From the human T2T-CHM13v2.0 reference genome, Homo sapiens: a stretch of DNA of 64,000 nt. Shown here one piece after another: positions 1,909-62,100 of the stretch. The stretch lies in the NCBI RefSeq assembly GCF_009914755.1, contig NC_060933.1; one strand, written 5' to 3'. A program made the position numbers and the translations under genes. Within the stretch, counting starts at the first letter, position 1. Each line of letters starts with the position of its first letter. The notes under the pieces were generated by a model. The model saw only the letters and a list, made by a program, of their open reading frames with translations. It had not been told where the DNA came from and searched no databases.

Positions 1909-4632
1909 GGCCAGGATCACACCTGGGATTCCAGAACTTTGGGAGGCCAAGGTGGGAGGATCACTTGAGCCCAGGAGTTCAAGACCAGCCTGGGCAGCAA
2001 AGCAAGACCCCATCTCTACAAAAATAAAAATCAGCCAGTAATGTAGTTTGGATCTGTGTCCCCACCCAAATCTCATGTTGAATTGTAATCCCCAGTTTTG
2101 AAGGTAGATCCTGGCGGGAGATGGTTAGATCATGGGGGTGGAGTTCTCATGAATGGTTTAGTATCATCCCCCTTGGTACTGTATAGTGAGTGAATTCTCG
2201 CAAGATCTGCTTGTTTGAAAGTGTATAACATCTTCCCTCTCTCTCTCTTCCTTCTGCTCCAGCCATGTAAGATGTGCCTGATTCCCCTTTGCCTTCCACC
2301 ATGATTTTAAGTCTCCTGAGGCCTCCCCAGAAGCAGAAGCCACTATGCTGCTTGTACAGCCTTCAGAATCATGAACCTCTTTTTAATAAATTACTCAGTC
2401 TCAGGTATTTCTTTACAGCAGTATGAGAACAAACTAATACAGAAAATTGGTACTGAGGAGTGGGGCATTGCTATAAAGATACCTGAAAATGTGGAAGCAA
2501 CTTTGGAACTGGGTAACAGGCACAGATTAGAAGAGTGTAGAGGGCTCAGAAGAAGACAGGAAGATGAGGGAAATTTTGGAGCTTCCTAGAGACTTGTTAA
2601 ATGGTTGTGGCCAAAATGCTGATAGTAACAGGGACAGTGAAGGCCAGGCTGATGAGATCTCAGACGGAGATGAGGAACTTACTGGGAACTGGAGCAAACA
2701 TCACTTTTGTTACACTTTAGCAAAGAACTTTGAGGCATTGTGCCCCTGCCCAAGGAATCTGTGGAACTTTGAACCTGAGAGTGATGATTTAGGGTATCTG
2801 GTGGAAGAAATTTCTAAGCAGCAAATTGTTCAAGATTTGGCTGGCTGCCTCTAACAACCTATGCTTATGTGTGAGCAAATAAATGATCTGAAAATGGAAT
2901 TTATATTTAAAAGGGAAGCAGCGCATAAATGTTTGGAAAATTTGCAGCACAGCCATGTGGTAGAAAAGAAAAGCCCATTTTCAGGGGAGCAATTCAAGCA
3001 GGTTGCAGAAATTTGCATAACTAAAAGGAAAGCAAATGCTGATAGCCAAGACAATGGGAGAAAGTCCTCGGTGGCATTCCAGAGACTTTCATGGCAGCCC
3101 CTCCCATCACAAGCCCAGAGGCCTAGGAGGACTGAATGGCTTTGTGGGCCAGATTCAGAGCTCCACTGCCCTGTACAGCCTCAGGACACTTTTCCGCATC
3201 CTGGCCTCTCCACCTCCAGCTGTGGCTCAAATGAGCCAAGGTACACCTCGGACAACTGCTCCAGAGAGAGCAAGCTGTAAGCCTCTGCAGCTTCCACATG
3301 GTGTTAAGCCTGCAAGTGCACACAATGCAAGAGCTGAGGCTTGGGGTCCTCCACCTAGATTTCAGAGAAAGTATGGAAAAGCCTGGATGTCCAGGCAGAA
3401 GCCTGCTGCAGGGGAGGGTCCCTCATGGAGCACCTCTACTAGGGCAGTGTGAGTCGTAAATGTGGAATCAGAGCCTCCATACAGAGTTATTCTCACTGGG
3501 GCACTGCTTAGTGGAGCTGTGAGAAGACAGCCATCATCCTCCAGACCCCAGAATAGTAGATCTACCAACAGCTTTCACCCTGCACCTGGAAAAGCCACAG
3601 GCACTCAGTGCCAGCCTTTGGAAGCAGTAGCAGGGACTGAACCCTGAAAAGCCACAGGGACAGGGCTGCCCAAGGCCTTGGGAGCCCACCCCTCACACCA
3701 GTGTGTCCTGGATGTGGGACATAGAGTCAAATGAGATTGTTTTGGAACTTTAAGGTTTAATGAATGTCCTACTGGGTCTTAGACTTGCATGGAGCCTTAG
3801 GCCCTTTCTTCTGGCTGATTTCTCCCTTTTGGAATGGAAGTATAATATGCCTATAACCCCATTGTATCTTGGAAGTAACTAATTTGTTTTCACTTTTACA
3901 GGCTCATAGGTGAAAGTGACTAGCCTTGTCTCAAAGAGACTTGGGACTTTGGACTTTTGAGTAATGCTAGAATGAGTTAAGACTTTGGAGGACTGTTGGG
4001 AAGGTATGATTGTATTTTGAAATGTGAGAAGGACATGAGATTTGGGAGGGATCAGGGGTGGAATAAGATGATTTGAACGTGTGTCCCTACCCAAACCTCA
4101 TGTTGAATTTGGAGGTGGGCCTGATGGGAAGTGATTGGATCATGGGGGAAGAGTTTATACAAATGGTTTAGTATCATACCCCTTGGTACTGTATAGTGAG
4201 TGAGTTCTCACTAGATCTGATTGTTTTAAAGTGTGTGGCATCTTTCCCCTCTCTATCTTTCTCCTGCTCTGGTCACGTAAGATGATCTTGCTTCACCTTT
4301 GCCTTCTGCCATGATTGAAAGTTTCCTGAGGCCTTCCCAGTAGCAGAAGCTGCCATTCTTCCCTGTACAGCCTGCAGAACATGAGCCAATTAGACCTCTT
4401 TTATTTATAAATTACTCAGTCTCAGGTGTTTCTTTATAGTAGTGCAAAAATGGACTAATACAGCTGGGCACGGAGGTGCATGTTTATAGTCCCAGCTACT
4501 CGGGAGGCTGAGACAAGAGGATCGCTTGAATCCTAGAGTTCTAGGCTGTAATCAACTATGATCATGCCACTGCACCAGCCTGGACCACAGAGTGAGACCC
4601 TGTCTCTAAAACATTTAAATTTACATTTTAAA
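1909..4632 (+). mobile_element. AluJ split by MSTA provirus (Alu parts 1909-2038 and 4463-4632)
   Basis: Left arm with J-type ggatcacttgagcccaggagttc; right arm resumes at 4463; TSD aagacccctggaact (1894-1908) / aagatccatggaact (4633-4647). Confidence 0.9.
2039..4462 (+). mobile_element. Full-length MSTA-type ERVL-MaLR provirus (LTR 2039-2441, internal 2442-4063, LTR 4064-4462)
   Basis: Two LTRs ending ctaataca; internal part starts gaaaattggtactgaggagtggggcattgc; polypurine tract before 3' LTR; 5-bp TSD gccag/gctgg. Confidence 0.92.
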
Positions 4633-18754: not shown

Positions 18755-21043
18755 TGCATTAGTCTGTTTTTATGCCGCTGATAAAGACATACCCAAGACT
18801 GGGAAGAAAAAGGGGTTTAATGGACTTACAGTTCCACATTGCTGGAGAGGCCTCACAATCACGGCAGAAGGCAATGAAGAGCAAGTCACGTCTTACATGG
18901 GGCAGCAGGCAAAAAGAAGAGAGAGCTTGCACAGGGAAACTCCCATTTTTAAAACCATCAGATCTTGTGAGACTCATTTACTATCATGAGAACAGCACAG
19001 GAAAGATCCACCCCTATAATTCAATCACCTCTAACTTGGTCTCTCCCGTGACAGTGGGAATTGTGGGAGTTACAATTCAAGATGAAGTTTGGGTAAGGAC
19101 ACAGCCAAGCCATATCATTCCACCACTGGCCCCTCCAAATCTCATGTCCTCACATTTCAAAACCAGTCATGCCTTCTCAACAGTCCCCCAAACTCTTAGC
19201 TCTTTTCAGCATTAACTCAAAAGTCCACAGTCCAAAGTCTTATCTGAGACAAGGCAAGTCCCTTCCAACTATGAGCCTGTAAAATCAAAAGCAAGCTAGT
19301 TACTTCCTAGATACAATGAGGTGTTCAGGTATTGGGTAAATACAGCCATTCCAAGTGGGAGAAATTGACCAAAATAAAAGGGCTACAGGTCCCACGCAAG
19401 TCCAAAATCCATCAGGGCAGTCAAATCTTAAAGCTCCAAAATGATCTCCTTTGACTCTGTGTCTCACATCCAGGTCACACTGACACAGGAGGTGGGTTCC
19501 CACAGCCTTGGGCAGCTCTGCCCCTGTAGCTTTGCAGGGTATAGCCCCACTCCTTCCTGCTTTCATGGGCTGGCATTGAGTGTCTGTGACTTTTCCAGGC
19601 ACACAGTACAAACTGTTGGTGAATCTACCATTCTGGGGTCTGGATGATGGTGACCCTTTTCTCACAGCTCCACTAGGTGATGTCCCAGTAGGGACCCTAC
19701 ATGGAGGCTCTGACCCACATTTCCCTTCTGAACTGCCCTGGAAGAGGTTCTCCATGAGGGCTCTGCCCCTGCAGCAAACTTCTGCCTGGAGATCTAGGAG
19801 TTTCCTTACATCTTCTGAAATCTAAATGGAGGTTCCCAAACATCAATTCTTGACTTCTGTGTACTTGCAGCCTCAACACCACGTGGAAGCTCCCAAGGCT
19901 TCGGGTTTGCACCCTCTGAATCCACAGCTCAAGTGCTATATTGATTCATTTCAGTCACAGCTGGAGTGGCTGGGATGCAGGGCACCAAGTCCCTAGACTG
20001 CACACAGCTTGGAGACCCTCAGCCTGGCCCACAAAACCACTTTTTCCTCCTAGGCCTCTGGGCCTGTGATGGGAGGAGCTGCCATGAAGACAGTGGAGAC
20101 ATTTTCCCCATTGTCTTGGTGATTAACATTTGGCTCCTTGTTACTTATGCAAAATTTCTGCAGCTGACTTGAATTTTCTCCTCAGAAAATTGGATATTCT
20201 TTTCCATTGCATTGTCAGGCTGCAAATTTTCCAAACTTTTATTCTGTTTCCCTTTTGAATGGAAATGCTTTAACAGCACCAAGTCACTTCTTGAATACCT
20301 TGCTGCTTAAAAATGTCTTCTGCCAGATATCCTAAATCATCTCTCAAGTTCAAAGTTCCACAAGTCTCTAGGGCAGGGACAAAAACCCGCCAGTCTCTTT
20401 TGTAAAACATAACAAGAGTCACCTTTGTTCCAGTTCCCAAGAAGTTCCTCATCTCCATCTAAGACCACCTCAGCCTGGATTTCATTGTCCATATCATTAT
20501 CAACATTTTGGTCAAAGCAATTCAACAGGTCTCTATGGAGTTCCAAACATTTCCATATTTTTCTGTCTTCTAAGCCCTCCAAGCTGTTCCAACCTCTGCC
20601 TATTACCCAGTCCCAAAGTCGCTTTCACATTTTCAGGTATCTTTTCAGGAGAGCCCCCACCCTCTCTACTGGTACCAGTTTACTGTATTAGTCCATTTTC
20701 ATGCTGCTGATAAAGACATACCCAAGACTGGGAAGCAAAAGAGGTTTAATGGACTTACAGTTCCATGTGGCTAGGAGGCCTCACAATCACGGCAAAAGGC
20801 AAGGAGAAGCAAGTCACCTCTTACATGGAGAGCAGCAGGCAAAGAGAGAGCTTGTGCAGGGAAACTCCCATTTTTAAAACCACCAGATCTCATGAGACTC
20901 ATTCGCTGTCACAAGAACAGCACAGGAAACACCCACCCCTATAATTCAACCACCTCCCACTAGGTCCCTCCCACAGCATGTGGGAATTGTGGGAGTTGCA
21001 ATTCAAGATGAGATTTGGATGGGGACACAGCCAAACCATATCA
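18755..21043 (-). mobile_element. Full-length THE1 (A/B-type) provirus (3'LTR 18755-19117, internal 19118-20683, 5'LTR 20684-21043)
   Basis: Paired LTRs and THE1-int with decayed ORF (20337-20582); TSD gggca/gggct. Confidence 0.93.
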
Positions 21044-21525
21044 GGGCTTGATAGAGGAACATGAGTTTTGACCCAAACAGGTTTCTATCTGTGACCAAAT
21101 GCTCCATGTTGTGGTCCCTGCCTCATTGCCCTGGTATCTTTTCTGTTGAAGCTGACCTTTAGCATTGGTATCCCAGTTCATCCATATCTCCTCCTCATTC
21201 CCATTCCCTGCTATCCATCTTCCAGCCCACTCTAGGATAGGGTCGAAGATGCCCCTTACAGCAGCCATCTCTGGCTTTGTATTTAGCCTCGGTGGATACA
21301 AAGCCTGTGGATAGCCTCGGTGAATGAAGCCTGTGACCCTGGCTCCATATTCTCCACCGACTCCATCTTGGGTGGGAAAAGTCTAGGATATGTGTCCAGT
21401 GAAGGACTCTAGGCAAGTTATTGGGTGGGAGGAGAGCCCCATGGAGGTATCTCTGAAGACTTGCTGAATGATTTGGGTTGAGGTTGGTCTTAAAAGATTA
21501 GCTAAGGAGACAAAAAAGGCTGGGG

Positions 21526-36320: not shown

Positions 36321-37097
36321 AGGAGGCAGGCTGGTCTTCATGTAGAGTGATCTAGCTGAGTGCTGGTGGAGTCTGGACTCAGGAGGTTTCTGCCATCTCC
36401 AAATATGGGCTGGAGCGTCCCCCTCCCTCCATCTGGCTCTGGCAGTGGGGAAGGATTCAGGATAGATTCTAACGACTGGTGCCTGAGTATGAATAGCGGG
36501 ACGATATCAAGGACTGAGCACAGCTTCCCAGCCTGGGCAACTGGGGGAACTGAAGTGGGGAGTGTTCAGTTGCTGTTGATGGTCCTTATTTCAGTTGTTG
36601 ATATAAAGCATTCTGGAGAAACAAAGTCAGGTCCATCCTTCAGAGACTTCTCAGTGCACGAGGTCAAGCAGTGCCCCCTTGTATTGCAAATACCTAAGGT
36701 TGGGGGCCGGCTGCTCAGATGCAGGCTTCCAGACCTGGAGGGACTCTGAAGAGCAGCAAAGTCCACTGTCTCATGGCACTGATGAGGGAACTGAGGCCCA
36801 GAGAAGGGAAAGGACTTTATCAGGACCACACGGCCAGGCAGCCTGCACCCCAGCTACCCCAAACCAGGTCCTAGCCCCCTCAACCCAGAGTCCAAGAGAG
36901 AGCAGGCCTTCAGTCCAGCCATCATTTGGGTTTCAGCTGGTCTCTCCAGCATCACAAGATGAAGGCCCCTGCAGTGAGGCAGATGTCCAGCACCTCCCTG
37001 CAGATGCCACCCTGGAAGTTTATCCCCCCAAGGTCTCAGACTCACCATCCAACAAAACCATTGCAGGAATCCCACTGGCCCCCATTATCTGTTATTA

Positions 37098-37322
37098 CAG
37101 AAGTGGGAGGCTACAGCCTGCAGGCCAAATTCAACCCATCCCTTGTTTCGACAAATAAAGTTTTATTGGAACACGGCCACACCCATGTGCTTTTGTATTC
37201 TGAAGCATGGCTGTTTTCATGCTGAGTGACAGAGCTGAATGCTTATAACAGAGACTATATGGCACAAGGAGCCAAAACTATTTACTCCTTGGCCCTTGAC
37301 AGAAAAAGTTTGCTGAGCCCCA
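37098..37322. mobile_element. MER58A (hAT-Charlie)
   Basis: ctacagcctgcaggccaaat...aaataaagttttattggaacacggccacaccca...ggcccttgacagaaaaagtttgc. Confidence 0.85.
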
Positions 37323-37729
37323 GCCTAGGAGAAAGAAGGCAGCTTGGACTTCGGGGTCAGACCAAGCTTTGAGCCCCATCTCTGCCACCTGCCAGCAATC
37401 CAGACAAACCAGTCACTTGTATAACGTGCAGAGAATAGCAGTGTCTACCTCACGGGGCTGTTGTGGAGATTAAATGAAACAACACAGGTAAAGTGCTTAG
37501 CTCGGTGCCCAGCAGAGAAAGAGAGCGACAGAGAGACAGAAACAGGGAGAGATGAAAGGGAGGAATGAAGAGATCAGTGCATGACAGGCACCATTGCCTC
37601 CCAAGTTTATCATAGCCAGCTCCGTGCTATAAGGCCCTGGGGGCTACCACTTTCTTTAGGCTGTCTTTCCTTTTCCTGAGCCGGCATCGGTGCCTCTTCC
37701 ATCTATTCCCACACCCTCAAACATCAGCT

Positions 37730-38150
37730 CATAACCCTGTAGCCATTACGAACACAGCCGCCTCTCCTCGGCCCATTCACAAAAGGTTAAAAGCAGCAGC
37801 CGCCGTATGGAGCTGTAGCTGCCAGGGCTGGGAGCGAGATATTCTGTCAGCACGTCCTGAAATTCTTTTGGAAGTTTGACAGGATTAAGGGGATTAATAC
37901 ATTAAAGCATTATTACAGCATTCACAGGGGATTTTCAAAAGACTTTACACTGTGATCTATTTGTCCTGTTACATAAAACTCGCGTTAATAGGCTGATGGT
38001 GAGGGCCAAACAGAATATCTGTGGAATCAATAACCTTATTTTTTGGTAAACACATTTAGCAGGCAGAGCTGGTCATTAAGGCCTGCAGACCCTCCCACGG
38101 CGCGCATCAACGAAATTACCCTTGGAGAATCCATTTGCCAATTAAGCTGA
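37730..38150. promoter_or_regulatory. Candidate conserved developmental enhancer, copy A (core 37844-37977)
   Basis: Non-repeat; CTGTCA/TGACAG, two GGATTA, several ATTA, AATCAATA, GTAAACA; retained CpGs; gapless paralogue at 42263-42396. Confidence 0.7.
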
Positions 38151-39640
38151 GGGCTTGTCTGAGTCCTCAAGCCTGCTGATGGCAGGGGGCAGGAGAGAGA
38201 GTGTCTGCCTTCCGCCCTCCCTGGCTAACCCCCAAGTCCTGCTAAGCCAACACACACATCCCTGAGTCCCTGTTGCTGGGCAGAGGGGACAGTGCTGCAG
38301 GCAGGGGGAGTGGGATTGGTTCTGTGCCACAGTGCATTCTGGGTCTCCTGGACAACAGGAGGGGTGGCTTTAGAGTGGGTTGGGTGTGGCATAGCTTAGA
38401 TCACTCTACGGGTTAGATCACTCTACCCAAGGGGCTCTTTGTTTGTGCTGCTATCCTCTAAGCTTGATAAACAGCCTCCATTCTGCTCCCTCAACAACAT
38501 GGCTGATTTCTCCTGCTGATGCCTGCACAACACCCTCTTGCAAACTGCAAAGAATAAGGTAGCATCATAAAAAATATTAGCTTACACTTACGTAGCCCTT
38601 GCTGAGTGCCAGGCAGTATTCTGAGCACTCCACATATACTAGTTTGTTTAACAAGTACAGCAAACTTTTAAGGTAGGTTCCCCTATTATTCCCAATTTGC
38701 ATAAGAAGAAAGGGAGAGGCAGCAAGAAATTAAACTCTTGCCCAAGATAATAGAGCTGTTAAGTAACGGAATTGAGACTTGAACCCAGCAACCAGGCTCC
38801 AGAGTCCCAGCATGTAACCAGAATGCTATATCCACCAAGTTCTCCTGCTAACAAACAGTCACAAAGATTGTTTCCAACTACTAAGCAGTTACCAAATATC
38901 TAAGAACTCGTTATGGTACTTAATCCTTGCAGAAACCCACTAGCAGAGATTTTATTATAATATTCCCATTTTTTATATAAAGAAACCGAGGCTCACAGAG
39001 ATGAACAGTCAACTGGCCTAAAGTCATCTGACTGGCAAATGCTGAAGGAGAGATTAAAAGCCAAGAAGTCTGATGTCGGAGCCTAAGACTTAGTAACCAG
39101 ACCCAAGCCTGGTTGCTGGGTTCAAGTCCCAGGTCTATTATCTTGGGCAAGAGTCCTTCTGAATTCAAAGTGTAGCTATTAGGTAATGCTCAGCCATATT
39201 AACAATACCCTCAATAGTCTGTGCTAGGCCTTGGAGATGAGAAGAGGAAGAAGACATAGCCCCAGAAGAATGCTGGCCAAAGAGCTGGCACAGATCAAGG
39301 ATATGACACACACTTGGACCACCCTCAGCTCTATGCTCCTGGGGAGTAAGAATTGCTGTTCTGGTTAACATCATTGTACTCCTAGACTTAGCCCAGAACC
39401 TGGATGTAGTAAGATCTTTGTTAAATGTATTATTGAATGGATTCTCATTTTAGAAAGAAGGAGCTATAAAGCTCAGAGAGGTGACGTGACCTGTCCAAAA
39501 TCACATACCTACGACAAGGTAGGCAAAGATTTGAATTTGTATTTCTCTTCTTCCTCCTGCTTTATCTCGTCACAGTCCTCTATGCCTCCCTTTCTCCCCT
39601 CCATACACATATGCAAGCATGTAAACACACATGCATGTGT

Positions 39641-39645
<5 letters not shown>

Positions 39646-39679
<34 letters not shown>
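39646..39679 (+). repeat. (CA)n microsatellite
   Basis: Direct read. Confidence 0.9.
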
Positions 39680-39682
<3 letters not shown>

Positions 39683-40240
39683 CCACGCTCCTAAGCTTTG
39701 ACTACACCTTAACCAATTTATACTCCGGAAGGTAATGAACTCCCACTCACACAGGGCCTTTGCATGAGCAGTTCTCTCTGGCTGGTGCACTCTTCCCCAT
39801 GCTTCATCTTCACCCAGCTGATTCCTACTCATCCTTGGAGTCTCAGAATAGCTGTCATCACCACGAAGACACCTTCCCTTGACACAAAGCTAGTTTGGCT
39901 CATGGGCCCCTTTTCCTTGGCTGTCATAGCCATCTGGGTTCTCTAGTCCATCAATGTTCTATATTGTTCTGCCTATTCCCTCTAAACTGAGCCTCCTAGA
40001 CACTGGGTCTGTAATGCACCCATCTTCACCTACCCTATGCCTGGCTATGGGTCTTTAATAAATAGATGCTAAATAAGTGAACACAGTCTACCATTTTTGC
40101 AGGCTCACATACATACACATTGATGCTTATTGATGCTGTGGTCAGCCTGGTCTTGCTGTTGGGTGGTCCTTGAGGCTCCCAAGAGGCCCTTCAGGGTTAC
40201 TTATTGAAATACCAATTTGTGTTTTGTTTTTACTGTTAAT

Positions 40241-40775
40241 TATGTTAATTACCTACTGCTACATAGTATGTTATTCTCAAAACTTAGTGGGTTAAAACAA
40301 CAACAAACAATTTTATTATCTCATACAGGTTTTGAGAATCAGGAATTGGAAATGGCTTAGCTGAGTGGTTATGGCTTGGGGTCTTTCTTGAAGTTGCAGT
40401 CAAGATGTTGGCCTGGGCTGCAGTCATCTGAAGGTTGGACTGGTGCTGGAAGATCTGCTTCCAAGATGGCACACTGCATGGTTATTGGTAGAACGCCTTA
40501 GTTCCTCACCATGAGAGCCTCTCCAGAGGGCTACTTGAGTGTCCTCATGACATGAAAGCTGGCCTCCCCCACAGAGTGAGTGCTTCAGAGAGAGCAAGGA
40601 GAAAGTCAAATACTTTTCATGATCTGCACCATCACACACCACTGCTTCTGTCACATTCTCTTCATTATAATCAAGTCATTAAGTTCAGCTCACATTCAAG
40701 GGGAGGAGACTTAGGCTTCACCTGTTGGAGGGAGTAGTATCAACAAATTTGTGGACATACTTTAAAACTCTCACA
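40241..40775 (-). mobile_element. MLT1F-like LTR
   Basis: caaaacttagtgggttaaaacaac...gttgcagtcaagatgttggc...gcttccaagatggc...gagtgtcctcatgacatg. Confidence 0.8.
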
Positions 40776-40782
40776 CTACTCT

Positions 40783-40843
40783 AGGAAGGAAGGAAGGAAG
40801 GAAGGATGGGACGGAGGGAGGGAGGGAGGGAGGAAGGAAGGAG

Positions 40844-40912
<69 letters not shown>
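40783..40912 (+). repeat. (GGAA)n/(GGGA)n/(GAAA)n polypurine microsatellite
   Basis: Direct read; about 16 GAAA units. Confidence 0.95.
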
Positions 40913-40913
<1 letters not shown>

Positions 40914-42239
40914 CCTTTTCCCCTTGTCCCCATCCCAATAAACAGTCAAACCCTAGCTTTCTGTTTCTGAATGCCATTGCCAGAGGATATTTTTAAGAGT
41001 GTCTATATTTTAGCGCATGAAACCAAAATCACTTGGAAGGTAATAACCCTCAGTTCTTCTCCCTTATCAACCCCAACACTTGCTGGAAATGGAGGAAACA
41101 GAAGACTCTGACTGACTCTGAGAGAGAGAGGAGCTCCCCAAAACTGAATGGGCAATAGGGATGGGGGTATGGATTCTTCCCTTCCAAATTCCAACTCCAA
41201 AGAATGGCAGAGCCCTGCCTACAGATATCCACATGGTCTCCAACAGGGGAAATTGTTGGATGCCTGTGGAGGTGGCCACTAGGACTGAGGCCTCAAAGGT
41301 AGTAGGGGGTCTCTGTGGTATCGCCCACCATCCACTGAGAGGCACCTGCAAGGCCCTGAAGGGCCTTCTGGGAGCCTCAAGGACCACCAGAGAGCAAGAA
41401 CAGGCTGACCACAGCATCCCAACACCAAAACTACCCCAGTACCTTAGAGGCAGTCAGAGACTGAAGCCTCTTCCCCACTTGTAGGTGTCCAGGACCCATC
41501 CCAGCACCCTCCTCCCCAATCATTCTAACATGCCTGTAAGGAAGAATAGGACGACCCCATGTAGGCTGACCTGGGGAGGAAATTCTCTCCACCTTGAAGA
41601 GTGAGACTCAGAAAATATATGACCTGCTTTAGAACAAATGAAATATCTGAACAACTCATTGAGCATCACAGTCTTTGTTCCTAAGCTCTCTTGAAAGTCA
41701 GGCAGAATTTTAATCAAACAAAAACAACAAACAAGGGTGAGAAGGGAAAGAACTACTGTGTCTGTTAGCCCAACTGTCTGTCAGGAAATTGAGGCACGCG
41801 ATTTTATTTAACCCTCATGGTGGGAATTCTTATTCCCATTTTACAGCTGGAAAAAGGACAGCAGATTTATGGAATACCTTCATATGTCAGGCATTTGCCT
41901 GCAGCTTTAGAATCTTCCAACAACACTGCAATGAGCTATTATTACGTCTTACAAATGAGGAATTGGAGACTCAGAGAACCTAGAAAAGCAGCCCAAGACC
42001 ACAGAGCAAGCGATAGAGTCAGCTGCCCAGAGCTGAGTCTCTCCTTGCTGAGAAAGAATCAAGAAAGAATCTTTGTTTAATGCATCATCGTCTGTCTTTA
42101 AAAGAATCAATATTTATCTCCTGCCAAAAGTCCTCAGTTGCCATCCTGTCCTTGCAGCTCCTGAGAGCTTCCTGAGGAGTGTTGAGGGGGCAAAGGGTGG
42201 CCAGAGAGGAGTGCCCTGAGCCTCACAGACAGTGGTGCC

Positions 42240-42430
42240 CACCGCAGGGACCGGGAGAGCCACTGTCAGCTCCACAAAGCGCTTCTGTGGTAATTTGACA
42301 GGATTAAGGGGATTAATACATTAATGCATTATTAGCACTTTTATAGGAGATTTTCAGCGAGTTGAGCACGGTGATCCCTATTTCCTGTTATATAAACCGG
42401 CAGTAATTGTCTTAATTGGCCCATTGTTGC
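42240..42430. promoter_or_regulatory. Candidate conserved developmental enhancer, copy B (core 42263-42396)
   Basis: 40/41-nt identity to the copy A core plus four more conserved blocks at identical spacing. Confidence 0.7.
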
Positions 42431-43459
42431 TGATGGGAGCAGAAAGGGAACAGCCTGATTATCTCCTGGCCTGTGGTTCTGAGTCTGGCCACAGCTCCAG
42501 GCCAAGCCAGGAAGGCTCGGGGAAACTGAGTCTGAGTGTGGCTCTCTAAACATCTAGTTCTATGGGAGGTGCAATCCAGAGTCTCTGCTCCAACCAGTGG
42601 AGCAGAAAGTTACCCCGGGAGAACCCAAAGGCCAGGATTCCAGCTCCCACTGTGCAGCTCACTGACTGGCGACTTGGCCACCCTAAGCCTCCATTTCTAC
42701 ACCTACCAATGTGGATGGTGATTAAATCCACCTCATGGTGTTGCTGAAAAAATGCAGTGAGCCACTGTCAGTGAACATGCTTTGGCAATGGGGCAGGCCT
42801 GTGCTCATAGGAGGGAGGGTTATCATTTATTTGGATGGACTGAATTGGGGATTTTGCCTTTTGATGTTCATCTGTTGGGAGAGAATAATAACATCCCCCA
42901 AGGGAAAGTAGGTGGAATATGCAGGAGGGCCTGGAAGACATCCCTGGGGGCAAGGCAGCCAGGCAAGGTAAGGCCAGTGGGTTGTGAAGGGTCCAGCATG
43001 CTCCAACACTGAGGCCCAGACACCTCACGTCCCTCCTACCAGCCGAGCAGCAGGTCACACAAGAAGATGTCTGCAACTGTGGAACCCAGTTCCCTGGGGT
43101 TTAATTTTCTTTGCTAATTAAGTGTCTGAGTCGGACCCCCTGCAGGAGGTATGTGTCTGCAGCTTCATGGATGAGAATAATAATAAAGCCCTAGAATCAC
43201 AGCTTCAGAGGGGTCCTGAAAGGACTTTTCCTAGAAACAAACAAACATATCTTTTATCTTCCTCTCTCTACGAATCTAGGCTGGGTTGCAGGAAAGATGG
43301 TGTCAGAGGGCCCCAAGCTTTGTTATCTGGAAGAGAATGACCTGGCGGATTGGGAGGTCTGGGTGATCACTCTGACTGAGAAGCCAAGGATGAAATACAA
43401 GGTGAAGAGTAGCAAAGAGACAAGATTGGGGTGGATGCAATAGTTAGTGGACAAGCCTA

Positions 43460-43956
43460 ACTGTTGTGAAGTCTGAGCTCAAGTAGGGATCATAGCCATG
43501 GAGCAAAGGGGATGAGACTTGAATCACCTAGACTTGGTAACCCATCCAGGAAGCATGAGGAACAGAAATAAGATGCTGTGCACAAATATTTCTGGTTCCC
43601 CCATTTCTGGGCACATAGTGGGTTTGCAAGTTCTGCTCCCCTTGTGGTTGATGGAGCCATGTGGCCAGCTCTGGCAGATGTGTTGGGAGTGTAAGGGCCA
43701 GATGTCACTTCTTGGCTGAATAGTTAATTATCAGTGTGAGATCCTTCTTCTTCTCCAGGCCCAACAACTGGCAAAGTTTGCAATGGTGGCTCTTCCATTG
43801 GCCTAGGACCCTGAGTGGTTATAGTAAGCGTGGATCACCTGGCAAGCTGCACTATACCTGTAGCATGAACAACAAATAAACCCTTGTTGTTTTAAGCCCC
43901 TAAGAAATCGGAGTTATTTGTTATCAGTATACAACCTAGGCTGTCCTGACTGATAC
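43460..43956 (+). mobile_element. MLT1J-like LTR
   Basis: aaataaacccttgttgttttaagcc...tttgttatcagtatacaacctaggctgtcctgactgataca. Confidence 0.7.
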
Positions 43957-50483: not shown

Positions 50484-51569
50484 TCAGTAGAAATGGTCAT
50501 GGTAAGCCTCTAGTATAGACAATAGGGTGAAGTTGGAATTAATTTCATGGGGTGACCTAGTCAAGTCCTTAGATGTTTGAGTCATCTCCTACCCTGCCCC
50601 TTCAGTACCTGGTAAGCAGCCCTTGTATACTTTTAGGAACTGGGACCTCACTCTCTCTCCAGAAGCCTGTCTTGCTGTTGGATGACTCTGGCTGCTGGAG
50701 GTCTTCTTTATATGGATTTAAAGCCGGGATTCCTGTGATTTTCACCCACTGGTTTTTCACAGATGTTCTCGTCTCTTACGTGTAGGTTTTTTTGTTGTTT
50801 CAGGCTTTGCTTTTTTATGTCACAAGAAATGTTGAAACAGTTTTTTCCAGCTGTGTAATCTTCCTTGTCATTTTTGCAGGCTTTTAGCAGGCCCTGCTGG
50901 CATCTTTCAAGCTTATCTCTAATTCCAAATACATTAAAGAGGGGAAAAGAAAAAGGAAAGAGAGTAAAGTGTTTGGAGTCAAATAAAGTTACATATACAT
51001 TTTTTTTCTAACTTGTAGGGCAGTCAATATGCTTTTACTCTGGTACCAGCTCTTTCTTTTTATAAACCTCCACCACGCCAAAGGCAGTGATGCAATGGAA
51101 ACCGGCCTGGACCTAGTAGCGGGAGGTCTGGGTTCCAATCACAGCACTTCCCCTCATGAGCTGGGTGACCCTGAGCAACCCACCCATCCCCTCTGAGCCC
51201 AGGAATAACAATGCCTACCTTGAAGTCATGGGTGGATTAAAGTATTTAGAGTGCTTAAGCCAATACCTGACACAGGCTGTGTGCTCAATGAATGGCAAGA
51301 TTTAAACAGAAATGTCTCCCTGTTTGATCTCATGGGGCTCTTAGCCTAGGGCAATACAAGCAAAGAAACATCAAGAAGCCTGGAATCTCCTTGAGGTGGT
51401 AGGGTAGAAGCATTTATCCATTTGTTGGTTCAGTCAATATACAGTAAGAACCTGAAGAGTCTTATCCTGAAACAAATTAGGAACATGGATGGAAAACATG
51501 GATGGGCAGTAATGTACACTAGAGAAAACGCCCTTGACAGCAGATATATCTGATTTTGAACCCTTGCCC

Positions 51570-52335
<766 letters not shown>

Positions 52336-52647
52336 CATTCGTGTTCCTAATTTGTTGCAGCATGGAACACTTCAGGTTCTTGCCACATACTGACCTAAAC
52401 CAATAAATGGATAAATGTTTATCCCCAGCCATTTCAAGGAAATTCCAGGCTTCTTGGTTATTGGGACCAAAGATCTCTTTGGTCACACCCTGTGACCTTG
52501 GCCAAGTCACCCTGCATCTCTGAGCCTTGGTTTTCTCATCTCAGGAACAGACATAGCAGGAGTTCCCACCATGTAGAGTCATCGTGAGGGTTACTGAAGT
52601 AACTTACATAGAGCACTGAAAAGACTAGGTGCTCTTTAAAAGTCTGC

Positions 52648-61596: not shown

Positions 61597-62100
61597 TGTG
61601 TCAGTCTGAAATCCTGTCAGGAAAATGGACTTGACAGGGGTGCGACAGGAATAAAGGGTTTAATATGGGGATTAGCACTTACACACATATGCAAGGAGCT
61701 GGGAAAATAGAGGGGTAGAAGGAAAAGGGCTGGAGGATCAGAGTAATAGTCCCATAAGATTTCAGCCCCAAATGCTGGAATAGCTAGAGGAGCCAGAGCT
61801 CACGGGAAAGTCTAAGAAGCCACTACATTTAGGGGCCAAAGTGAGGTCCCAAAGTGAGGACTCCAGGAGAGGAGCTCCCATAACAGGACCATCATGAGAA
61901 TAATTGCTTCTGCTTTGCCATCTAAAGCATCTGCAGGTTCCTCTCATCAGCCAACTCTAACCTGGAACCCTACAGAGAAAAAGATTCTGGGAAACAAAGT
62001 TCTCAGCAGTGGATGGGAATGGGAACGTTGCCAAGTTCCTGCACACTACCCTTGGAGAGTCCCAGTCCAAGGTAGAGGTGGCATTAGTCAAATCATCACA
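61597..62100 (-). mobile_element. Old ERVL-class LTR (MLT2-like)
   Basis: tgtgtcagt...ccaactctaacctggaaccctacagagaaaaagattctgggaaacaaagttc...catcaca. Confidence 0.55.

What the first reader, a model, noticed from the sequence alone, without database searches (positions are those of the whole stretch)
37844..42396. Anciently duplicated enhancer pair with fixed motif spacing and randomised spacers
Seen: 37844-37977 and 42263-42396 (same strand, offset 4,419) align over 134 nt with no gaps. The five blocks are CTGTCAG, TTTGACAGGATTAAGGGGATTAATACATTAAWGCATTATTA (31 nt identical, 40/41 overall), AGGRGATTTTCA, CACKGTGATC and TCCTGTTAYATAAA. By hand count they match at 80/84 positions, while the spacers of 24, 10, 10 and 6 nt match at only 16/50 but keep exact length. 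The flanks show little similarity and I recognise no repeat family. Established: TGACAG is the MEIS/TGIF/PKNOX site (here an inverted pair); GGATTA is the K50 homeodomain site (OTX/PITX/CRX/GSC), here twice 9 nt apart and abutting TGACAG; TTAYATAA resembles PAR-bZIP/NFIL3 sites and YATAAA posterior HOX/CDX sites. Inference: near-saturated spacers with frozen lengths imply a very old tandem duplication with continuing selection on both copies. This would be an enhanceosome-like shadow-enhancer pair whose own alignment footprints the functional code. Alternatives are two exapted copies of an ancient repeat or a duplicated ncRNA. This is the best candidate for an undescribed system in the window.
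Basis: partly seen in the sequence, partly recalled or inferred. Interest (0 to 1): 0.88.

Follow-up and report, generated by a model that had tools for sequence, protein, structure and literature searches.

The report
Twin conserved non-coding modules near BRINP1
Two 134-base non-coding stretches 4.4 kb apart in a human gene desert are old copies of one another that kept five short blocks and their exact spacing while the DNA between the blocks was scrambled, the pattern expected of a duplicated gene-control element, though its activity and its age in other species remain untested.

Summary
The pair is unique in the T2T genome. Similarity stops at the 134-nt borders. The elements are not coding, match no Rfam family and fold no better than shuffles.

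Mismatches are clustered (permutation P 2.6e-4). Spacer identity is no higher than background (P 0.20). It lies far below the 71-78% seen between copies of two old repeat families. An absence of indels in 50 scrambled bases is unlikely under neutrality (P 0.065 to 7e-5 by calibration). So I read the pair as an old local duplication with selection on both copies, most likely a homeodomain-type cis-regulatory module.

Enhancer activity, transcription-factor identity, the shadow-enhancer role, the target gene and conservation beyond human could not be tested, because no vertebrate genomes or chromatin data were available.

One new lead: the 41-nt core weakly resembles the 3' part of MIR SINEs. 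The evidence is mixed (for; 52, 54 against). This is a tandem variant of the known duplicated-CNE kind, of moderate interest.

The parts
37844..37977 (+). Copy A of the 134-nt module
   Evidence: gapless 96/134 to copy B; one of only two genomic places; stops in all six frames, 35% GC against 46-51% in the flanks.
42263..42396 (+). Copy B of the 134-nt module. It lies inside the last intron of lncRNA LOC124902260, on the opposite strand.
   Evidence: the 2 kb around it matches nothing else in the genome but copy A; 38% GC.
37844..37850 (+). Block 1 of copy A (partner 42263-42269). It is 7/7 identical, and 8 nt are identical in fact. It is the reverse complement of the hexamer that starts the core, so the two form an inverted pair 24 nt apart.
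   Evidence: The hairpin this pair could form is no more stable than spacer shuffles (P 0.18 and 0.17).
37875..37915 (+). Block 2, the core, of copy A (partner 42294-42334). It is 40/41 identical and holds the 31-nt exact run. It is dense in TGACAG, GGATTA and TAAT/ATTA-type half-sites (motif names recalled).
   Evidence: MIR-like resemblance is confined to about module positions 30-81.
37926..37937 (+). Block 3 of copy A (partner 42345-42356), 11/12 identical
37948..37957 (+). Block 4 of copy A (partner 42367-42376), 9/10 identical
37964..37977 (+). Block 5 of copy A (partner 42383-42396), 13/14 identical. It marks the 3' border of detectable homology.
38124..38418 (.). RefSeq functional element 'tiled region #9522; HepG2 Activating ...', 147 nt 3' of copy A. 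It is a neighbour, not part of the repeat.
   Evidence: annotation table only; the underlying paper was not read

Best explanation
Copies A and B descend from one ancestral non-coding module of about 134 nt that was duplicated locally. They lie in tandem, in the same orientation, now 4.4 kb apart, with younger repeat insertions between them. The duplication is old enough that unconstrained positions have been randomised.

Both copies have since been under purifying selection on five short blocks and on the distances between them. The most likely reason is that the blocks are binding sites for a fixed set of transcription factors that must sit in a defined geometry. The AT-rich 41-nt core reads as a packed array of homeodomain-type half-sites: TALE-class TGACAG, K50-class GGATTA and TAAT/ATTA pairs. 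On this reading each copy is the core of a distal cis-regulatory element in the BRINP1-CDK5RAP2 desert, and the two act on the same target with overlapping or partitioned activity.

Shown: paralogy, uniqueness in the genome, the mosaic of divergence, the absence of indels, and the absence of coding or RNA signals.

Inferred: selection, transcription-factor binding, enhancer function, redundancy and target gene.

The ancestral module may itself have been seeded by a MIR/L2-type retroposon fragment. That point is unresolved.
For: - Paralogy: E 3.4e-17 and only two places in the genome.
Tests free of block definitions: permutation P 2.6e-4 for a run of 31 or more, and P 1.8e-3 for 41 or fewer runs.
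- Spacers: 16/50 against a background of 0.257 (P 0.20). Jukes-Cantor distance is 1.78, and at least 0.93 at the 95% limit.
- Calibration: copies of two old repeat families are still 78% identical (45 of 45 pairs) and 70.6% identical (15 pairs of 6 MIR copies).
- Indels: those families show 0.028 and 0.022 gap events per aligned nt. By my arithmetic this predicts 2.7 to 9.6 indel events in the 50 spacer bases. None is seen, giving P 0.065 to 7e-5.
- Not coding: 1-5 stops in each of the six frames of both copies, and mismatch phase 12/14/12.
- No RNA signal: none of the 13 sub-threshold Rfam matches in 36500-43800 touches either copy. Folding z-scores are -0.7 to -1.8.
- Context: an AT-rich island in GC-richer flanks. 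The 8-kb bins that hold the pair have 3-5% masked repeat, against 14% for the desert and 19% for chr9 100-130 Mb. A RefSeq MPRA-activating tile lies 147 nt from copy A. The locus is a 1-Mb gene desert upstream of the neural gene BRINP1.
Against: - No cross-species conservation, chromatin, ChIP or reporter data could be consulted, so selection is inferred from one paralogue pair only.
- Only 50 spacer bases carry the age and spacing arguments. At the mildest calibration, the absence of indels has P 0.065.
- The blocks were defined after looking at the alignment.
- The masked-repeat table misses old repeats, so 'repeat-poor' is overstated.
- No RefSeq functional element overlaps either copy.
- The motif-to-factor assignments are recalled, and AT-rich homeodomain-like words are common.
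- If the core derives from a MIR of mammalian age, randomised spacers are hard to reconcile with neutral rates. So either the MIR resemblance is coincidental or from an older relative, or the age argument is flawed.
Confidence: 0.6

Rival explanations
1. A and B are two independent insertions of one rare, now extinct retroposon family, MIR/L2-like. Both were exapted, rather than arising by local duplication. The blocks are the parts of the family sequence that were kept by selection.
For: - The core resembles the 3' part of natural MIR copies. 9 of 28 fetched near-matches to the 22-mer core sit in MIR copies at the same position and orientation (7 with score 17 or more, controls 11 or less).
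- Against 29 MIR copies chosen on their 5' half, scores exceed reversed and reverse-complement controls: P 0.010 and 0.004 for A, 0.024 and 0.034 for B.
- The best alignment is 35/48 with one gap.
- Homology ends sharply at both borders, as expected of element ends.
Against: - Only two copies exist in the genome, 4.4 kb apart and in the same orientation.
- The register test is not significant (P 0.075 for A, 0.32 for B).
- Only about 25-50 nt align, and nothing in the rest of the module or its flanks aligns to full natural MIR copies.
- A's scores (median 11.5) are below MIR-to-MIR scores (median 18).
- The two copies share every one of their departures from the MIR copies across 40/41 nt, which independent insertions would not do unless the family differed from MIR.
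Confidence: 0.15
2. The pair encodes a duplicated structured non-coding RNA, for example a small hairpin RNA, and the blocks are stems or protein-binding parts of the RNA.
For: - Block 1 and the start of the core are reverse complements and can form a 7-bp stem.
- RNAalifold places 3 (+ strand) and 1 (- strand) pairs with changes on both sides.
- Copy B lies in an intron of a lncRNA.
Against: - There is no Rfam match at either copy, even at E up to 10.
- Folding z-scores are -1.50, -0.67, -1.42 and -1.77, and 11-47 of 200 shuffles fold as well.
- The 39-nt hairpin is no better than shuffles of its spacer (P 0.179 and 0.169).
- With two sequences and randomised spacers, a few 'compensatory' pairs are expected.
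- Copy A lies outside the lncRNA, and copy B is on its opposite strand.
Confidence: 0.04
3. The blocks are kept alike by repeated short gene conversion between two old homologous sequences, not by selection on function.
For: The copies are close (4.4 kb) and in direct orientation, which favours conversion. The 41-nt core is nearly identical.
Against: Five separate tracts of 7-41 nt, interleaved with randomised spacers of 6-24 nt, are much shorter and patchier than usual conversion tracts (recalled). Conversion needs flanking homology, which is absent.
Confidence: 0.03
4. The pair is a neutral relic with no function, and the mosaic is a chance pattern of decay.
For: No direct functional evidence was available.
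Against: - Clustering of matches has P 2.6e-4 and 1.8e-3.
- 16/50 in the spacers is incompatible with the 95% identity of the blocks under one rate (Fisher P 2.5e-15, post hoc blocks).
- Neutral DNA this diverged should carry indels.
Confidence: 0.03

Closest known systems
Duplicated conserved non-coding elements (dCNEs), as described in passages of PMC1896008 and PMC2020477 that cite McEwen et al. 2006 (that paper was not held)
   Same: These are non-coding sequences with more than one significantly similar copy in the human genome. They have conserved cores with diverged surroundings and are thought to be developmental enhancers retained after duplication.
   Different: Published dCNE families are described as products of the early vertebrate whole-genome duplications and as lying near paralogous trans-dev genes. 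Here both copies sit 4.4 kb apart in one intergenic desert, with no copy at any paralogous locus. Conservation in other vertebrates, which is part of the definition, could not be tested.
Shadow (redundant) enhancer pairs (recalled concept)
   Same: Two elements in one locus that could bind the same factors and drive overlapping expression.
   Different: Shadow enhancers are defined by activity, usually without alignable sequence. Here sequence paralogy is shown but activity is not.
Retroposon-derived enhancers: MIR-derived enhancers (PMC4090950, seen as search listing and start of abstract) and the CORE-SINE-derived POMC neuronal enhancer nPE2 (PMC2000970, seen the same way)
   Same: An old SINE fragment may have supplied the core. 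The resemblance is to the 3' part of MIR.
   Different: The resemblance is short (about 25-50 nt) and statistically mixed (against 52, 54). No other SINE part is recognisable. The pair is unique rather than one of many copies.
Enhanceosome-type (rigid grammar) enhancers and indel-purified segments (both recalled)
   Same: Spacing between sites is preserved while spacer sequence is free.
   Different: This rests on one paralogue comparison with 50 spacer bases. Cooperative assembly is not shown.

Membership tests
Duplicated CNE (dCNE) | More than one significantly similar copy in the human genome (PMC1896008 methods passage: BLAST E of 1e-4 or less) | tested here: met
   E 3.4e-17, two places
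Duplicated CNE (dCNE) | Each copy conserved across vertebrates (fish-mammal) | not testable with these tools
   No vertebrate genome other than the human reference is reachable
Duplicated CNE (dCNE) | Copies lie near paralogous developmental genes (whole-genome-duplication origin) | tested here: not met
   both copies lie in one desert between BRINP1 and CDK5RAP2, with none elsewhere
Duplicated CNE (dCNE) | Non-coding | tested here: met
   stops in all six frames and no codon periodicity. No annotated exon overlaps.
Shadow enhancer pair | Both elements drive overlapping expression of one target gene | not testable with these tools
   No reporter, chromatin or contact data. Only a neighbouring MPRA tile is annotated.
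Shadow enhancer pair | Both elements lie in the same regulatory locus | tested here: met
   offset 4,419 nt; same intergenic desert.
MIR / CORE-SINE-derived element | Significant similarity to MIR copies in a consistent register | tested here: inconclusive
   Score excess with P 0.004-0.034, and 9 of 28 near-matches lie in MIR copies. But the register test gives P 0.075 and 0.32, and scores are below MIR-to-MIR scores.
MIR / CORE-SINE-derived element | Other SINE parts (5' half, tail) recognisable next to the matching part | tested here: not met
   with 120-nt flanks, only the core aligns to three full natural MIR copies. One of the three, L045, had been found through the core pattern.
MIR / CORE-SINE-derived element | Annotation by curated repeat models (Dfam/RepeatMasker) | not testable with these tools
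   No repeat library is available, and the masked table lists only stretches of 100 nt or more, without names
Interspersed repeat family | Many dispersed copies | tested here: not met
   two copies only (closed regions not shown)
Structured RNA family | Match to a curated covariance model | tested here: not met
   13 sub-threshold matches in 36500-43800, none at the copies
Structured RNA family | Stability beyond shuffles, and covariation | tested here: not met
   z-scores -0.7 to -1.8 and hairpin P 0.17-0.18. Covariation cannot be judged from two sequences.
Rigid-grammar (enhanceosome-type) enhancer | Invariant spacing of sites while spacer sequence is free | tested here: met
   four spacers of 24, 10, 10 and 6 nt keep their length at 16/50 identity. 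The neutral expectation is 2.7-9.6 indels.
Rigid-grammar (enhanceosome-type) enhancer | Cooperative factor assembly that depends on that spacing | not testable with these tools
   Needs binding and reporter assays

The most novel reading that the evidence does not exclude
This is a tandem pair of enhancers that has been retained since before the mammalian radiation, possibly since early tetrapods or earlier. Both copies obey one rigid, helically phased homeodomain grammar, a TALE-class site abutting K50-class and paired-type sites. The paralogue alignment then acts as a natural mutagenesis screen that separates required bases, required distances and free sequence in a vertebrate enhancer. The pair may have been seeded by an ancient L2/MIR-type retroposon, and it controls BRINP1 or another gene of this desert.
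Probability: 0.3. Interest if true: 0.6.

Novelty: new variant of a known kind. Interest (0 to 1): 0.42.

Why it matters
If both copies are functional enhancers, their alignment gives a base-resolution footprint with no experiment needed. It shows which bases must stay, which distances must stay and which bases are free. That bears on the open question of how rigid vertebrate enhancer grammar is.

It would also be an example of enhancer redundancy that arose by local duplication of the element itself, rather than by whole-genome duplication or independent origin. And it would point to regulatory DNA for BRINP1, a neural gene linked to behaviour in mice (PMC3928644, title and start of abstract only), in a desert with no described elements.

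If the MIR-like seed is real, it adds a case of a retroposon fragment that was first exapted and then duplicated.

Tried and rejected
- Common repeat: rejected. There are two copies genome-wide, and the 2 kb around B matches nothing else.
- Larger duplicated segment: not found. No colinear hit appeared in +-5-7 kb, and the flanks are no better than shuffles.
- Paralogous copies elsewhere, for example at BRINP2/3: none at BLAST sensitivity.
- Third copy in the window: the best non-self nhmmer hit, 61641-61684, has E 0.25. I thought by eye that it was a decayed MIR, but pairwise tests against three natural MIR copies scored 9-11 against controls of 9-13. It is therefore neither a copy nor a MIR on this evidence.
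- The 28 fetched near-matches to the 22-mer: profile hits extend little beyond the pattern, and the E-values are biased by how the loci were chosen.
- Coding exon: rejected.
- Structured RNA: not supported.
- Wider MIR/L2 panel: a query with the 3' part of a natural MIR copy returned only 2 places, because common words are skipped, so the panel stayed at 29 copies. Single natural MIR copies as BLAST queries against held loci found few further copies.
- Literature:
  - The 17-mer core string is in 0 papers.
  - BRINP1/CDK5RAP2/desert/enhancer terms gave 240 papers, none of the 15 listed on this locus.
  - BRINP1 plus CNE gave 24 papers, none of the 15 listed relevant; the 'cne' hits are journal DOIs.
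  - Two searches were poorly chosen and gave nothing useful.
  - One review had no relevant passage.
  - McEwen et al. 2006 is not held, so whether it lists same-locus dCNEs rests on recall and is unverified.
  - Supplementary tables of CNE papers, which could list this element, are closed.


Full report
OBSERVATION. The two stretches were read directly and compared base by base. Window 37844-37977 and 42263-42396 are on the same strand, 4,419 nt apart, and align without a gap at 96/134. The four spacers of 24, 10, 10 and 6 nt score 9, 4, 1 and 2 (16/50). The longest exact run is 31 nt.

Genome-wide BLAST with either copy finds only the two places in the 3.1-Gb T2T reference, and the pair scores E 3.4e-17. 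The 31-mer with up to three mismatches has 2 forward, 0 reverse and 0 control hits. The tool does not show matches in closed regions, so 'only two' carries that caveat.

EXTENT. MAFFT of +-100-nt flanks and BLAST at word 9 or 7 stretch the alignment by about 20 nt on each side, with gaps. Smith-Waterman on the 120 nt beyond each border is no better than shuffles (P 0.52 for 3', 0.63 for 5'). No other colinear match exists among the 53 HSPs from +-5-7 kb. Among 12 self-matches of the window that avoid masked repeats, the pair is the second strongest. The 2 kb around copy B matches nothing else in the genome except copy A. The 2 kb around copy A matches, apart from B, only through an old interspersed repeat at 37111-37336 (567 candidates, 40 scored). 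Recognisable homology is therefore a sharply bounded 134-nt unit.

LOCUS. The window lies in a 1.02-Mb desert. It is 745 kb upstream of the BRINP1 start (a minus-strand gene) and 211 kb beyond the 3' end of CDK5RAP2.

- Copy B is in the last intron of lncRNA LOC124902260, on the opposite strand. Copy A is outside that gene.
- No RefSeq functional element overlaps either copy. One MPRA tile annotated as HepG2-activating lies at 38124-38418, 147 nt from copy A.
- The two 8-kb bins that hold the pair have 5% and 3% masked repeat, against 14% for the desert and 19% for chr9 100-130 Mb. However, the mask table lists only stretches of 100 nt or more and misses old repeats, so this is weak evidence.
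- The copies are AT-rich islands (35% and 38% GC) in 46-51% GC flanks.
- Between the copies lie an old interspersed repeat (40238-40784; 1,589 candidates, 40 scored at 68-77% identity) that carries the lncRNA's last exon, and a microsatellite. The original distance between the copies was therefore shorter.

WHAT IT IS NOT.

- Not coding: each of the six frames of each copy has 1-5 stops, and mismatches fall 12/14/12 by phase.
- Not a known RNA: a permissive Rfam scan of 36500-43800 gave 13 matches, all below their gathering scores, and none touches the copies.
- Not detectably structured. RNA folding z-scores are -1.50, -0.67, -1.42 and -1.77. The hairpin that the inverted block-1/core pair could form is no more stable than shuffles of its spacer (P 0.179 and 0.169). 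RNAalifold's 3 and 1 two-sided changes are what randomised spacers would give by chance with two sequences.
- Not a multi-copy repeat.

EVIDENCE FOR SELECTION. The matches are clustered. In 200,000 permutations of the match string, a run of 31 or more occurs with P 2.6e-4, and 41 or fewer runs with P 1.8e-3. These tests need no block definitions.

Spacer identity (16/50; 95% interval 0.20-0.47) is not above the background of 0.257 obtained from 516 out-of-register comparisons (P 0.20). The Jukes-Cantor distance is 1.78, and at least 0.93 at the interval's limit. The distance in the blocks is 0.05.

For scale, copies of the old repeat next to copy A are 78.0% identical, with 0.028 gap events per aligned nt (45 of 45 pairs). 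The 3' parts of six well-kept MIR copies are 70.6% identical, with 0.022 gap events per nt. The spacers are thus far more diverged than two of the older repeat families of the genome.

Scaling the measured gap rates to the spacer distance predicts 2.7 to 9.6 indel events in the 50 spacer bases (my arithmetic). None is seen: P 0.065 at the mildest combination and 7e-5 at the strongest. Local alignments under-count gaps, so these figures are conservative, but the lower bound is only suggestive.

Together, these results say the split is old and that both copies have been held in their blocks, and probably in their spacing. It follows by inference that the blocks should be conserved among mammalian orthologues. 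That is the first thing to check.

A NEW LEAD: A MIR-LIKE CORE. A 22-mer from the core with up to 3 mismatches hits 46 places genome-wide, against 27 for the reversed control. Of the 28 non-self hits that were fetched, out of 44, 9 have a MIR 5' half immediately upstream in the same orientation. Seven of these score 17-56, while all controls are 11 or less.

To avoid this ascertainment bias I took 29 natural MIR copies found through the 5' half of one copy and compared their unselected 3' parts with A and B, pairwise.

- A scores a mean of 10.4 against 9.0 (reversed) and 8.9 (reverse complement), P 0.010 and 0.004.
- B scores 9.9 against 8.9 and 8.9, P 0.024 and 0.034.
- Against the six copies that clearly keep the region, A scores 15, 12, 10, 10, 11 and 19 against 7-10 for reversed controls (P 0.004). 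The best alignment is 35/48 with one gap.

Against the lead:

- The count of alignments sharing one register (6 for A, 5 for B) is reached by shuffled elements with P 0.075 and 0.32.
- A's scores are below MIR-to-MIR scores (median 18).
- With 120-nt flanks, only module positions of about 30-81 align to full natural copies.
- A random 22-mer window of a 134-nt element has a fair chance of a 16/22 match somewhere in a 260-nt SINE (my estimate).

There is also a logical tension. A and B share all their departures from MIR copies across 40/41 nt, so they split after those departures arose, yet their spacers are more diverged than MIR copies are from each other. That fits a seed from an older relative, or coincidence, better than an ordinary MIR. 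I could not build a profile of MIR copies (barred), and no repeat library was at hand. The lead is unresolved. I give a retroposon seed about even odds.

MECHANISM (INFERRED). The core reads as a dense array of homeodomain-type words: a TGACAG abutting a GGATTA, a second GGATTA 9 nt on, and TAAT/ATTA pairs. In copy B this includes a perfect 10-nt palindrome that copy A breaks at the core's single mismatch. An inverted TGACAG lies 24 nt upstream. The factor names (MEIS/TGIF/PKNOX, OTX/PITX/CRX/GSC, paired-type dimers) are textbook recall and were not tested.

The best reading is a compact cis-regulatory module whose factors need a fixed geometry, duplicated in tandem, with both copies retained as overlapping or partitioned enhancers of a gene in this desert. 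BRINP1 is the obvious candidate. Steps shown: paralogy, mosaic, absence of indels, absence of coding and RNA signals. Steps inferred: binding, enhancer activity, redundancy and target.

COMPARISON WITH WHAT IS KNOWN. Passages of PMC1896008 and PMC2020477 describe 124 families of duplicated CNEs. [quoted passage not shown] The duplicated ones are attributed to the early vertebrate whole-genome duplications and lie near paralogous developmental genes. The present pair meets the copy-number and non-coding criteria but fails the 'near paralogous genes' criterion, and vertebrate conservation is untested. It therefore works like a dCNE pair but is a tandem, same-locus variant.

Retroposon-derived enhancers are known: PMC4090950 and PMC2000970, both seen as a search listing and start of abstract. 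Shadow enhancers, enhanceosomes and indel-purified segments are cited from recall.

Nothing on this element was found in print: the core string is in 0 papers, and the locus searches gave nothing relevant among the 15 papers listed each. Closed supplements of CNE catalogues could still list it.

VERDICT. The pair is very probably a real, old, selectively maintained duplicate of a non-coding module (about 0.85) and probably cis-regulatory (about 0.6). Its factor code, shadow-enhancer role and deep vertebrate age are open. It is a new variant of a known kind and of moderate interest, mainly as a natural footprint of enhancer grammar.

Noticed in passing
window 40132-40196 and 41354-41418: A 65-nt inverted repeat, 90.8% identical, whose two arms are the only copies in the genome. 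It brackets 1.16 kb that holds the last exon of lncRNA LOC124902260 and a microsatellite, and it lies between copies A and B. It looks like a much younger local inverted duplication.
   Followed up: partly
window 40238-40784 (lncRNA exon 40243-40721) and 40780-40918: The lncRNA's terminal exon lies almost wholly inside an old interspersed repeat (1,589 candidate copies, 40 scored at 68-77% identity). A GGAA/GAAA-type microsatellite follows it. By recall the repeat looks like an LTR of the MaLR kind, but it was not named by any tool.
   Followed up: partly
window 37111-37336: An old interspersed repeat (567 candidates, 40 scored at 71-75% identity) lies 500 nt 5' of copy A but is absent from the table of masked repeats of 100 nt or more. 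That table therefore misses old repeats, and 'unmasked' does not mean 'unique'.
   Followed up: partly
window 61641-61684 (context 61600-61700): This is the best non-self hit of the A/B profile in the window (E 0.25; 19/22 to the core 22-mer). It is on the same strand, 19.3 kb 3' of copy B, with a CTGTCAG and a TTGACAGG just upstream. It is not significant, and pairwise tests do not show it to be a MIR.
   Followed up: partly
window 38124-38418: A RefSeq functional element, 'tiled region #9522; HepG2 Activating non-DNase unmatched - State 10:DNaseD', lies 147 nt from copy A. It is the only annotated regulatory element within 35 kb of the pair.
   Followed up: no
window 51372-51508 and 52319-52456: An inverted repeat, 77.5% identical over 138 columns, flanks a masked repeat at 51895-52215. 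It may be an old palindromic element split by a younger insertion.
   Followed up: no
window 2030-4317 and 18856-21052: A long inverted similarity, 70% over 2,342 columns. It is presumably two copies of a long interspersed element in opposite orientation.
   Followed up: no
window 39606-39676 (- strand): A sub-threshold Rfam match to mir-297 (43.7 bits against a gathering score of 90). It was not examined and may be low-complexity sequence.
   Followed up: no
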